DNA from: an uncultured Candidatus Saccharibacteria bacterium
Lineage (GTDB): Bacteria; Patescibacteriota; Minisyncoccia; Phycocordibacterales; JAKFXT01
Assembly (NCBI GenBank): GCA_964385825.1
Contig: CAYLPX010000001.1
Span: forward strand, 173,797 to 237,796
Length of the DNA stretch: 64,000 nucleotides
Direction: 5' to 3'
The stretch's first letter is position 1, and every line of letters starts with the position of its first letter. Shown one piece after another: positions 47,831-48,132 of this stretch. Below the pieces are notes generated by a model that saw only the letters and a list, made by a program, of their open reading frames with translations, was not told the DNA's origin and did not search any database. Position numbers and translations under genes: made by a program.

Positions 47831-47965
47831 ATGGACAACATGGACGAGAGTTCGTGGCACATGCTTTGGGCTGTTCCCACCTGCATTTTCCTTTTCATCT
47901 TGTTTCTGCTTTGCTGTCTCGTGATGAGGGAAAATCCGATGCACTTTTTTGACACTGAACCTTAA
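47831..47965 (+). CDS. GC-rich cassette G1: 44-aa single-TM peptide (Hok/Gef-like flavour)
   Basis: MDNMDESSWHMLWAVPTCIFLFILFLLCCLVMRENPMHFFDTEP. SD AAGGAGAG. The 23-nt leader is identical to the one before cassette I. Confidence 0.45.
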   Translation: MDNMDESSWHMLWAVPTCIFLFILFLLCCLVMRENPMHFFDTEP

Positions 47966-47978
47966 GGGGGGTTTCACT

Positions 47979-48095
47979 GTGGGTAAAATCAAGCAGTGGC
48001 TGACCGCGGTCACGGAAGGCATCTGGTTCGCGCTTTTTCTTCTCTCCGTACTCCTCGCGAAGGATGATCAGGAGGGCGCGAGTCCCTGGGACTGA
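47979..48095 (+). CDS. GC-rich cassette G2: 38-aa single-TM peptide, GTG start with SD AAGGGGGG
   Basis: (M)GKIKQWLTAVTEGIWFALFLLSVLLAKDDQEGASPWD. Followed by hairpin ggcccggcacgc-aaa-gcgtgccgggcc (48102-48128). Confidence 0.4.
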   Translation: MGKIKQWLTAVTEGIWFALFLLSVLLAKDDQEGASPWD

Positions 48096-48132
48096 TTCAA
48101 CGGCCCGGCACGCAAAGCGTGCCGGGCCACCA

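What the first reader, a model, noticed from the sequence alone, without database searches (positions are those of the whole stretch)
47831..48128. Pair of tiny single-TM peptides (44 and 38 aa) in a GC-rich bicistron - toxin-like
G1 (MDNMDESSWHMLWAVPTCIFLFILFLLCCLVMRENPMHFFDTEP) and G2 (GKIKQWLTAVTEGIWFALFLLSVLLAKDDQEGASPWD) each consist of one hydrophobic helix plus a short charged tail. Each has its own strong SD, and a GC hairpin follows. Size, a single TM with Cys after the helix, and GC-rich structured flanks resemble type I toxin (Hok/Gef, Ldr, TisB-like) or two-peptide bacteriocin modules. Cassette M (59367-59480; MQAIAQFFGISIPLIACGMVLLIAGMKRVEALRPIRR) is a third peptide of the same style.
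Basis: inference. Interest (0 to 1): 0.5.

Follow-up and report, generated by a model that had tools for sequence, protein, structure and literature searches.

The report
Conserved operon of tiny membrane peptides
Two real but mostly unannotated genes for 44- and 38-residue single-pass membrane peptides sit as a self-contained, fast-evolving mini-operon inserted backwards between the cell-division gene ftsQ and the tRNA-modification gene dus of an uncultured Paceibacteria (CPR) bacterium; they form a new peptide family of unknown role and do not belong to any known toxin or bacteriocin family.

Summary
G1 (47831-47965, 44 aa) and G2 (47979-48095, 38 aa, GTG start) lie on the + strand in the 375-nt gap between dus and ftsQ (both on the - strand). 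Each has a Shine-Dalgarno site, and a 12-bp GC hairpin follows (48102-48128).

The ORFs are more than chance. In the sister species (Dus 86% identical), the same gap and strand carry three tandem ORFs. S1 and S2 are homologous to G1, with shared H-x-L-W-[AI]-V-P. S3 matches G2 weakly. That operon ends in a different hairpin.

Most Paceibacteria have ftsQ and dus abutting, so the module is a lineage-specific insertion. In both species each upstream stop codon sits inside the next SD, which implies translational coupling.

No peptide matches Pfam, NCBIfam, PHROGs or PADLOC, and none has a homologue in billions of proteins. No antisense-sRNA signal, double-glycine leader or transporter was found.

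Best reading: a new family of co-translated accessory membrane peptides. They are type-I-toxin-like in shape only. G1 and G2 belong to a class of GC3-rich, SD-bearing, terminator-capped accessory genes in a genome whose native genes lack SDs.

The parts
47774..47802 (+). Possible promoter of the peptide operon: TTGATT, 17 nt, TTTAAT. It lies in the 73-nt divergent spacer shared with dus.
   Evidence: Read from the sequence. The block ATCTTACTTGATTT..AGAAACAAG is conserved in the sister species. It falls below the threshold of the consensus scan, so this is inference only. The block could instead serve the dus promoter on the other strand.
47813..47835 (+). 23-nt translation-initiation block CCACCCAAGGAGAGATACATGGA, identical to 51738-51760 in front of another GC-rich accessory ORF. 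It contains the G1 SD AAGGAG at 47819-47824.
   Evidence: Exact 23-nt direct repeat, E = 3e-7 within the window.
47831..47965 (+). G1: 44-aa single-pass membrane peptide, MDNMDESSWHMLWAVPTCIFLFILFLLCCLVMRENPMHFFDTEP. Type A, with motif H-x-L-W-[AI]-V-P.
   Evidence: ORF and SD. Homologous to S1 and S2 of the sister species: z = 6.5 and 7.1 against shuffles, tblastx 28.6 and 24.9 bits in the peptide frame, invariant H10, L12, W13, V15, P16.
47964..47971 (+). SD-like AAGGGGGG for G2, overlapping the G1 stop codon TAA (47963-47965). This is a translational-coupling junction.
   Evidence: Read from the sequence. The sister species has the same design at both of its junctions: TGGTGAGG and TAGGAG.
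47979..48095 (+). G2: 38-aa single-pass membrane peptide with a GTG start, (M)GKIKQWLTAVTEGIWFALFLLSVLLAKDDQEGASPWD. Type B, with a basic N-terminus, a TM segment and an acidic tail.
   Evidence: ORF. It is the positional counterpart of S3 in the sister species: tblastx 18.9 bits with aligned stop codons, z = 3.1, p = 0.012. It is weakly related to type A (G1-G2 z = 3.1, S1-S3 z = 4.7).
48102..48151 (+). Intrinsic terminator of the peptide operon. The 12-bp GC stem with AAA loop spans 48102-48128. The U-rich tail ACCAUCAUUUUAUACUUUUAU runs into the 3' end of ftsQ on the other strand.
   Evidence: Fold of -28.6 kcal/mol, z = -6.7. A hairpin of different sequence plus a T tract sits at the same place in L089, L095, L098 and L101. 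On the ftsQ strand no U tract follows the stem.
46795..47757 (-). dus (tRNA-dihydrouridine synthase), the flanking native gene, divergent from G1.
   Evidence: Pfam PF01207, E = 3e-65.
48133..48969 (-). ftsQ/divIB-like gene, the flanking native gene, convergent with G2.
   Evidence: Pfam POTRA_1 and FtsQ_DivIB_C. SerRS-FtsQ-Dus synteny holds across Paceibacteria.

Best explanation
G1 and G2 are genuine protein-coding genes that form a self-contained bicistronic operon.

Shown:
- The operon consists of an SD, a 44-aa ORF, a stop codon embedded in the next SD, a 38-aa ORF, and a GC hairpin with a U tract.
- It is a lineage-specific insertion, in antisense orientation, into the normally abutting ftsQ-dus junction of a Paceibacteria (CPR) genome.
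- The sister species keeps the same architecture with three paralogous ORFs.

Inferred:
- The peptides are translated in a coupled fashion, so in similar amounts.
- Each inserts as a single-pass helix. Most family members have a basic N-terminus, which suggests N-in, with the acidic tail outside.
- They act together as a small hetero-oligomeric membrane assembly.

The family evolves very fast, varies in copy number and is confined to about one genus. It also carries the GC3-rich, SD-bearing, terminator-capped signature of this genome's accessory genes. I therefore read it as an accessory function at the membrane. My rough split is about 35% for a membrane-perturbing or protective peptide set involved in conflict or interaction, and about 30% for a modulator of a larger membrane protein. 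It is not a housekeeping function and not a classical sRNA-controlled type I toxin.
For: Conservation of the ORFs:
- The same gap and strand in the sister species L089-L091 (Dus 86% identical) hold S1 (44 aa), S2 (43 aa) and S3 (34 aa), each with an SD, followed by a 15-bp hairpin.
- Shuffle z-scores: G1-S1 6.5, G1-S2 7.1, S1-S2 8.1, G2-S3 3.1. Unrelated TM peptides (M, C-type) score z < 2.
- All top tblastx hits between the two gaps lie in the peptide frames, none on the opposite strand.
- Within the conserved motif the Leu and Val codons differ synonymously: CTT/TTG/CTG and GTT/GTA.
- All 12 within-species differences seen in S1 and S3 are substitutions that keep the ORFs open: 5 synonymous and 7 non-synonymous, mostly conservative.

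Insertion and operon design:
- 35 of the related loci examined have ftsQ and dus -11 to +71 nt apart. Three relatives at 78% Dus identity have a 17-nt gap.
- Each upstream stop codon lies inside the next SD in both species.
- The terminator is conserved in position but not in sequence.

Rarity and composition:
- Only G1 and M, out of 984 small ORF candidates, combine a strong SD with a TM stretch.
- 20 of 32 long native ORFs have no SD-like motif.
- GC3 is 0.62 and 0.72 for G1 and G2, against 0.30-0.41 for native genes.

Parallel case:
- Relatives L095, L096 and L098 carry a single antisense 36-aa TM peptide with an acidic tail at the same junction. It is under clear purifying selection: pN = 0.29 while synonymous sites are saturated.
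Against: - No expression data exist.
- The consensus scan detects no sigma-70-like promoter in the window.
- Only two species carry the A and B types, so dN/dS between them is uninformative (pN = 0.56, pS = 0.68).
- The G2-S3 relationship is weak (p about 0.01).
- Hetero-oligomerisation and topology are inferred from operon design and charge distribution only.
- G1 has an acidic N-terminus, which does not fit a simple positive-inside rule.
- The actual function is untested.
Confidence: 0.6

Rival explanations
1. Type I toxin-antitoxin locus. On this reading, G1 and/or G2 are membrane-depolarising toxins. Their translation would be held down by an antisense RNA, either a dedicated sRNA or read-through of the convergent ftsQ transcript. 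That transcript would be fully complementary to the peptide mRNA, because the hairpin has no U tract on the ftsQ strand.
For: - The protein-level descriptors of Fozo et al. 2010 are met: under 70 aa, one TM, a polar or charged C-terminus, tandem paralogues in one intergenic region, and narrow distribution (sequences).
- S1 and the C-type peptides have a Trp after the helix followed by a charged cluster, as in the Ldr/Fst signature.
- The module is convergent with ftsQ and shares a terminator stem with it.
- In ancestral genomes ftsQ and dus abut, so read-through antisense transcription is plausible.
Against: - No HMM match to any toxin family.
- No promoter-like site on the antisense strand.
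- The one weak antisense terminator-like site is at chance expectation.
- No complementarity of 13 nt or more to the SD or start regions elsewhere in the window.
- No folding-energy minimum on the minus strand apart from the shared hairpin.
- The paralogues sit back to back (8-13 nt) in one coupled operon, leaving no room for separate sRNA genes.
- The module is 73 nt and 37 nt from its flanking genes. Fozo's search criteria required at least 400 nt and 250 nt.
- The SD is strong and the leader appears short.
Confidence: 0.15
2. Two-peptide or leaderless bacteriocin. On this reading, G1 and G2 are exported and together permeabilise competitors or the host cell.
For: - Two (or three) adjacent, co-translated small hydrophobic peptide genes.
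- Rapid diversification and within-species SNP clusters in S1 and S3.
Against: - There is no double-glycine leader, and at 34-44 aa there is no room for a leader plus a mature peptide.
- The peptides are net anionic with a fully hydrophobic core. They are not cationic and amphipathic.
- No GxxxG motif is present.
- No ABC transporter, C39 peptidase or immunity gene lies nearby. The neighbours are Dus, FtsQ, SerRS and a PRTase.
- No PHROGs or Pfam bacteriocin hit.
Confidence: 0.05
3. Non-functional ORFs. On this reading, the gap is horizontally acquired or filler DNA whose real role is the terminator or insulator between ftsQ and dus. The hydrophobic ORFs would be by-products of T-rich sequence.
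For: - No homologues exist outside one genus.
- Divergence between sister species is extreme: 27% peptide identity against 86% for Dus.
- The same junction holds unrelated inserts in other lineages.
Against: - ORF length, SDs, stop-in-SD junctions, the TM character and the H-x-LW-x-VP motif are all retained despite near-saturated nucleotide divergence.
- No frameshift or stop codon occurs among the polymorphisms.
- The SD plus TM combination is otherwise absent from small ORFs of the window.
Confidence: 0.1
4. Divisome-linked small membrane regulators, comparable to E. coli Blr or Caulobacter SidA. On this reading they act on FtsQ or its partners. The comparison to Blr and SidA is from my own knowledge.
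For: - The module directly abuts ftsQ in every carrier.
- The size and the single-TM-plus-polar-tail architecture fit such regulators.
Against: - The orientation is antisense, so the module is not part of the ftsQ operon.
- The same junction carries unrelated genes in other lineages: an 81-aa soluble ORF, a FolD-like ORF of 268 aa and a PurN-like ORF of 208 aa (likenesses judged by eye from the translations), and others. Adjacency therefore looks like a permissive insertion site rather than a functional link.
Confidence: 0.1

Closest known systems
Fst/Ldr-type and other chromosomal type I toxins (Hok, TisB, Ibs, ZorO)
   Same: Size of 30-45 aa, one hydrophobic helix, a charged or aromatic C-terminal tail, tandem paralogues in one intergenic region, narrow phylogenetic range, and frequently missed by gene callers (PMC2887945).
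   Different: No sequence-profile match. No detectable antisense sRNA gene. The genes are polycistronic and translationally coupled, not repeated toxin-plus-sRNA units. The SD is strong and the leader short. The module is tightly wedged between its flanking genes.
Class IIb two-peptide bacteriocins and multi-peptide leaderless bacteriocins (for example lactococcin G, enterocin L50, aureocin A70; from my own knowledge)
   Same: Two to four small peptide genes lie side by side in one operon and are presumably made in equal amounts.
   Different: No double-glycine leader. The peptides are anionic rather than cationic. Each has a fully hydrophobic TM core rather than an amphipathic helix. No immunity or export genes lie nearby.
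Small single-pass membrane proteins that modulate larger complexes (for example Blr, AcrZ, CydX, MgrB; from my own knowledge)
   Same: Length, a single TM and a short polar tail. CydX and Blr also carry acidic C-tails.
   Different: No homology. NCBIfam and Pfam give no hit. No partner gene sits in the operon. Evolution is far faster than for typical accessory subunits, and copy number varies.
The 36-aa peptide at the same ftsQ|dus junction in relatives L095, L096 and L098 (M[LF][KR]K.W...ALGG..DLSDE)
   Same: Same site, same antisense orientation, an AAGGAG SD, a terminator hairpin, one TM and an acidic tail.
   Different: No significant sequence similarity to G1, G2 or S1-S3 (z < 2). It is a single gene. 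It may be an independent insertion or a relative diverged beyond recognition.

Membership tests
Type I toxin (Hok/Gef, Ldr/Fst, TisB, Ibs and similar) | Small protein (under 70 aa) with a predicted TM helix and a polar, charged or aromatic C-terminus | tested here: met
   G1 is 44 aa and G2 is 38 aa. Maximum 17-residue hydropathy is 2.9 and 2.0. The tails are RENPMHFFDTEP and KDDQEGASPWD.
Type I toxin (Hok/Gef, Ldr/Fst, TisB, Ibs and similar) | Sequence-profile membership in a described toxin family | tested here: not met
   No Pfam or NCBIfam toxin family reported for G1, G2, S1-S3 or the C-type peptides (Pfam limit E = 1 for G1/G2/M; E = 10); the only weak hits were to unrelated families (BRI3, TMEM52, DUF3185; CcmH, PgaD; CbiN).
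Type I toxin (Hok/Gef, Ldr/Fst, TisB, Ibs and similar) | A cis- or trans-encoded antisense sRNA antitoxin pairing with the toxin mRNA | tested here: inconclusive
   No promoter-like site on either strand in 47500-48400. No complementarity longer than 12 nt elsewhere in the window. No minus-strand folding minimum apart from the shared hairpin. Read-through from ftsQ cannot be excluded without RNA data.
Type I toxin (Hok/Gef, Ldr/Fst, TisB, Ibs and similar) | Tandem duplication of whole toxin-plus-sRNA units, with similarity extending beyond the ORF, and loci set apart from flanking genes | tested here: not met
   The ORFs are 13 nt apart (8-9 nt in L089), with the stop codon inside the next SD. 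The module is 73 nt from the dus start and 37 nt from the ftsQ stop. The search criteria in PMC2887945 required at least 400 nt and 250 nt.
Type I toxin (Hok/Gef, Ldr/Fst, TisB, Ibs and similar) | Toxicity or membrane depolarisation on overexpression | not testable with these tools
   This needs inducible expression in a heterologous host.
Class IIb two-peptide bacteriocin | Two adjacent small peptide genes in one operon | tested here: met
   G1 and G2 in the window; S1, S2 and S3 in the sister species.
Class IIb two-peptide bacteriocin | N-terminal double-glycine leader; a cationic mature peptide with GxxxG motifs | tested here: not met
   The N-termini are MDNMDESSWH and MGKIKQ. There is no GG cleavage motif. 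Both peptides are net negative. No GxxxG motif is present (sequences).
Class IIb two-peptide bacteriocin | Linked immunity gene and ABC transporter or C39 peptidase | tested here: not met
   The neighbours are Dus, FtsQ, SerRS, a PRTase, DprA and orphan ORFs.
New A/B-type peptide family (this work) | 34-44 aa, one TM, an acidic tail, and for type A the motif H-x-L-W-[AI]-V-P at the start of the helix; encoded antisense in the ftsQ|dus gap with an SD and a terminator | tested here: met
   Alignments A3 and A4. An HMM search of six-frame translations of 100 loci plus the window finds members only at this site in the window species and the sister species.

The most novel reading that the evidence does not exclude
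G1 and G2 may be one instance of a genome-wide class of about a dozen mini-cassettes in this window. Each cassette is GC3-rich (0.56-0.76). Most have a canonical SD, and each ends in a GC hairpin, usually followed by a T run. They colonise junctions between native genes. The native genes are GC3-poor (0.30-0.41) and lack SDs, and many have a TATACT-like -10 box 5-10 nt before the ATG, which looks leaderless.

Cassette content differs between sister species and even between strains. G1 shares an identical 23-nt SD/start block with a 109-aa cassette that is absent from the sister species. This would point to a distinct, mobile gene pool (from phage, host or another donor). That pool would use a different translation-initiation regime from the resident genome and might enter by a recombination mechanism that uses the shared 5' block.
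Probability: 0.25. Interest if true: 0.65.

Novelty: new member of a known kind. Interest (0 to 1): 0.4.

Why it matters
Small membrane proteins are systematically missed in metagenome-assembled CPR genomes. Here G1, S2 and S3 were not called. G2 was called from an unlikely start codon. In the sister species a probably spurious 80-aa antisense ORF was called instead.

This locus shows that an uncultured, genome-reduced Paceibacteria lineage keeps and rapidly diversifies a translationally coupled set of single-pass peptides. That is the kind of gene that could mediate membrane-level interaction or conflict in episymbionts.

The locus also marks the ftsQ|dus junction as a permissive insertion site. 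It exposes a sharp split between native, SD-less genes and SD-dependent, GC3-rich accessory genes. That split could be used to recognise acquired genes in these genomes.

If the peptides turned out to be toxic, I know of no described type I-like toxin in CPR bacteria (not checked in the literature here). Their operon organisation would also differ from known examples.

Tried and rejected
- Eight further contigs of the same species were 100% identical across the gap, so they gave no information.
- Word-indexed protein searches with G1 and G2 found nothing or only G2 itself.
- Exact cluster look-up found only peptide M, as a singleton.
- phmmer of G1 against 1.84 billion representatives gave one hit. 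It is a 1176-aa translated tandem repeat matched 20 times and is spurious.
- tblastn of G1, G2 and M against 80 GTDB Dus loci gave only noise.
- A promoter-block DNA pattern scan returned one chance hit, in a homing-endonuclease/rRNA context.
- A viral-contig scan with the type A alignment found nothing.
- blastn of the gap against phages and plasmids gave no match.
- Rfam at gathering and at E-value thresholds gave only tRNAs elsewhere and sub-threshold noise on the hairpin.
- PHROGs and PADLOC gave nothing for the peptides or for most cassette ORFs.
- dN/dS between G1 and S1 is saturated and uninformative.
- I considered an integron attC reading of the hairpin and rejected it. There is no R'/R'' core-site pair, the cassettes are dispersed rather than arrayed, and no intI gene is present.
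- I considered coding on the opposite strand, as in the 74-aa and 80-aa antisense ORFs, and rejected it. All top tblastx hits between the window gap and the sister-species gap lie in the peptide frames, with none on the opposite strand.
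Full report
**What is there**

The window comes from a Patescibacteria (CPR) genome of the Paceibacteria type. Its mean GC is 44%. The best Dus matches among GTDB species representatives are Paceibacterota/Parcubacteria MAGs (several of the top records carry 'Saccharibacteria' labels in their titles) at no more than 69% identity.

The finding lies in a 375-nt gap between dus (46795-47757, - strand; PF01207, E = 3e-65) and an ftsQ/divIB-like gene (48133-48969, - strand; POTRA_1 and FtsQ_DivIB_C). The + strand, which is antisense to both neighbours, carries the following, read directly from the sequence:
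- SD AAGGAG at 47819-47824.
- G1, ATG 47831 to TAA 47965, 44 aa.
- An SD-like AAGGGGGG at 47964-47971 that overlaps the G1 stop codon.
- G2, GTG 47979 to TGA 48095, 38 aa.
- A perfect 12-bp GC hairpin at 48102-48128 (-28.6 kcal/mol, z = -6.7).
- A U-rich tail that runs into the 3' end of ftsQ.

'GC-rich' needs qualifying. G1 has average GC (45%) but a GC3 of 0.62. G2 has 58% GC and a GC3 of 0.72.

**Is it more than chance?**

I enumerated every start/ORF combination of 30-60 aa in all six frames of the window, 984 in total. Only two combine a strong SD at proper spacing with a TM-grade hydrophobic stretch.

Strong SDs are themselves unusual in this genome. Of 32 long ORFs, 20 have no SD-like motif at any plausible start.

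**Comparative evidence**

Eight other contigs of the same species are identical across the gap and tell nothing. Searching with Dus gave a graded series of relatives, and I fetched their contigs.

SerRS-FtsQ-Dus synteny is widespread in Paceibacteria. In 35 of the related loci examined the ftsQ stop and the dus start are -11 to +71 nt apart. This includes three relatives at 78% Dus identity with a 17-nt gap. The 375-nt gap is therefore a lineage-specific insertion into a junction that is normally tight and probably co-transcribed.

The sister species (Dus 86% identical; L089, L090, L091) has a 511-nt gap. On the same antisense strand it contains three tandem small ORFs, each with an SD:
- S1: MIKKEMSRIHLLWIVPVVVTLLCILALHAWVTKEDTDGLIENLW (44 aa).
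- S2: MKSKTLHPLHALWIVPTAIVLLIWAALVSSREKAGLFERHLDM (43 aa).
- S3: MKKLMNDFIGRVLSFLLLVALVLERDTDRGGPYE (34 aa).

A 15-bp GC hairpin of unrelated sequence plus a T tract follows them, next to the ftsQ stop codon (-31 kcal/mol).

G1 is homologous to S1 and S2:
- Local alignment scores exceed composition-preserving shuffles by z = 6.5 and 7.1 (S1-S2 z = 8.1).
- The unrelated TM peptides used as controls, M and the C-type peptides, stay below z = 2.
- The invariant residues are H10, L12, W13, V15 and P16.

G2 is the positional counterpart of S3. The tblastx hit scores 18.9 bits and runs into aligned stop codons, with z = 3.1. S1-S3 (z = 4.7) and G1-G2 (z = 3.1) suggest that all five peptides are diverged paralogues.

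All top tblastx hits between the two gaps lie in the peptide frames, none on the opposite strand. This argues against the 74-aa and 80-aa antisense ORFs. JGI annotated the 80-aa ORF in the sister species.

Conserved residues use different synonymous codons: Leu as CTT/TTG/CTG and Val as GTT/GTA.

Within the sister species, 7 of 26 differences between L089 and L090 fall in S1. Five of the 6 differences between L090 and L091 fall in S3. All 12 are substitutions that keep the ORFs open, 5 synonymous and 7 non-synonymous, mostly conservative.

Between the two species the peptides share only about 27% identity while Dus shares 86%. The family evolves very fast, and dN/dS is saturated.

**A parallel case at the same site**

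Relatives at 74-77% Dus identity (L095, L096, L098) carry one antisense 36-aa peptide in a 270-295-nt gap. Its pattern is M[LF][KR]K.W...ALGG..DLSDE. It has an AAGGAG SD, a TTGCAA-16-TAnnAT promoter-like site and a terminator hairpin.

L095 and L098 differ at essentially every synonymous site, but pN is 0.29. That is clear purifying selection on a protein.

This peptide shows no significant similarity to G1, G2 or S1-S3. Another relative (L101, GCA_021414235.1) has an unrelated 81-aa soluble ORF with an SD and a terminator, in the same place and orientation. Other lineages carry different inserts there. The junction therefore behaves as a permissive site for antisense, self-contained small genes.

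**How it most likely works**

Shown:
- The operon anatomy is conserved across two species despite near-saturated divergence.
- In both species each upstream stop codon lies inside the SD of the next ORF: TAAGGGGGG in the window, TGGTGAGG and TAGGAG in L089.
- The spacers are 8-13 nt. This is the classic arrangement for translational coupling.
- The hairpin is followed by a U tract only on the peptide strand, so it terminates the peptide operon rather than ftsQ.

Inferred:
- The peptides are made in similar amounts.
- Each inserts as a single-pass helix. Most members have a basic N-terminus and an acidic tail, suggesting N-in and C-out. G1, with its acidic N-terminus, is an exception.
- They act together in the membrane.

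The promoter is uncertain. A conserved block contains TTGATT-17-TTTAAT, but it falls below the scan threshold and could equally serve dus on the other strand.

What the assembly does is untested. Rapid evolution, copy-number change, restriction to about one genus and accessory-gene composition argue for an accessory or conflict-type function, or a modulatory one, rather than a housekeeping role.

**Comparison with known systems**

Type I toxins. The protein-level descriptors that Fozo et al. used to find new toxins are met: under 70 aa, one TM, a polar or charged C-terminus, and tandem copies in one intergenic region (PMC2887945). S1 and the C-type peptides even show a Trp after the helix followed by a charged cluster, as in the Ldr/Fst signature. 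The defining features fail or are not shown:
- No profile match to any toxin family.
- No antisense promoter, no trans complementarity longer than 12 nt, and no minus-strand structure minimum besides the shared hairpin.
- The paralogues are coupled cistrons rather than repeated toxin-plus-sRNA units.
- The module is 73 nt and 37 nt from its neighbours.
- Read-through antisense transcription from ftsQ remains possible and cannot be tested here.

Two-peptide bacteriocins. Only the feature of adjacent small genes is shared. There is no double-glycine leader, the peptides are anionic, no GxxxG motif is present, and no transporter or immunity genes lie nearby.

No homologue of either peptide exists in the 5.8-billion-sequence or 1.84-billion-sequence protein sets, or in the phage, plasmid or viral collections. 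This is a new sequence family within the known kind of small single-pass membrane peptides.

**Peptide M**

Peptide M (59367-59480) is a separate, well-formed unit. It has a TTGACT-17-TACTAT promoter-like site with an upstream TG (59266-59294), a structured leader of about 72 nt, an AAGGAG SD, a 37-aa ORF and a terminator. JGI annotates it as a hypothetical protein, and it is a singleton cluster. Its tail is basic, and it is unrelated to G1 and G2.

**The wider pattern seen in passing**

Native genes in the window have GC3 of 0.30-0.41 and no SD. Many have a TATACT or TAGTAT box 5-10 nt before the ATG, which looks leaderless.

About a dozen small ORFs in GC islands have GC3 of 0.56-0.76. Most have a canonical SD, and each ends in a GC hairpin, usually with a T run. 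With few exceptions (the PRTase domain; weak PHROGs/PADLOC hits for ORF 37881-38285) they have no family hits. G1 and G2 belong to this class.

G1 shares an exact 23-nt SD/start block with the 109-aa ORF at 51756 (47813-47835 equals 51738-51760). That cassette is absent from the sister species, where dprA is followed directly by the topA promoter. This suggests a distinct, dynamic accessory gene pool, which I did not pursue further.

**Verdict**

The peptides are real, conserved and mostly unannotated genes. The toxin and bacteriocin labels are not supported as family membership, although a toxin-like action is not excluded. Interest is moderate.

Noticed in passing
whole window; e.g. 559-948, 37881-38285, 44973-46773, 50394-50747, 51756-52085, 56494-56841, 58721-59149, 59367-59822: There are two gene classes. 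Native genes have GC3 of 0.30-0.41 and no SD, often with a TATACT-like box 5-10 nt before the ATG, which looks leaderless. About a dozen small orphan ORFs have GC3 of 0.56-0.76; most have a strong SD and a GC hairpin with a T run. Almost none has a Pfam, PHROGs or PADLOC hit.
   Followed up: partly
47813-47835 and 51738-51760: An exact 23-nt repeat, CCACCCAAGGAGAGATACATGGA, covers the SD, the start codon and the first two bases of codon 2 of G1 and of the 109-aa ORF at 51756-52085. That 109-aa cassette with its terminator (about 51701-52155) is absent from the sister species, where dprA is followed directly by the topA promoter.
   Followed up: partly
59266-59545: Peptide M is an independent unit. 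It has a promoter-like TTGACT-17-TACTAT with an upstream TG, a structured GC-rich leader of about 72 nt, an AAGGAG SD, a 37-aa TM peptide with a basic tail, and a terminator. It is a singleton cluster in the protein collection and is unrelated to G1 and G2.
   Followed up: partly
L095 2859-3128, L096 3730-4000, L098 3706-4000: An unannotated 36-aa antisense TM peptide, M[LF][KR]K.W...ALGG..DLSDE, lies in the ftsQ|dus gap of relatives at 74-77% Dus identity. It is under clear purifying selection: pN = 0.29 with synonymous sites saturated. In L095 and L096 (sequence identical there) a 5-codon mini-ORF (MKSMA) with its own AAGGGGGAAAG SD follows it.
   Followed up: partly
L101 2704-2949 (GCA_021414235.1): The same junction and orientation hold an unrelated 81-aa soluble ORF with an SD (GGGAGGTG) and a canonical terminator. 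Other relatives carry inserts of 67-341 aa there (ORF listing). The ftsQ|dus junction looks like an insertion hot spot.
   Followed up: partly
L089 2208-2450 (+): JGI calls an 80-aa ORF that is antisense to S2 and S3. tblastx between the species supports the peptide frames instead, so this gene call is probably spurious.
   Followed up: yes
L089/L090/L091: S1 (L089 2508-2572) and S3 (L089 2268-2292): Within the sister species, single-nucleotide differences cluster in the peptide genes: 7 of 26 in one pair and 5 of 6 in another. Two other clusters fall in serS and the PRTase gene. This could reflect recombination tracts or diversifying selection.
   Followed up: no
58568-58616 and 62217-62265: A 49-nt inverted repeat (88% complementary) sits next to two oppositely oriented tRNA genes, 58421-58502 (+) and 62366-62436 (-). 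It brackets a 3.6-kb segment that contains GC-rich cassettes, including M. This may be an inversion or an integrated element.
   Followed up: no
11655-25343 (-): A giant 4562-aa ORF has many internal repeat families with periods of about 650-1360 nt. It is probably a repetitive surface protein.
   Followed up: no
L002 around 4985-5699; L091 4611-5893: Strain-level differences occur downstream of dus. In L002 the PRTase region is called as a shorter 121-aa ORF with a 7-nt offset. In L091 the PRTase is replaced by two different minus-strand ORFs of 280 and 146 aa. This indicates a flexible accessory region.
   Followed up: no
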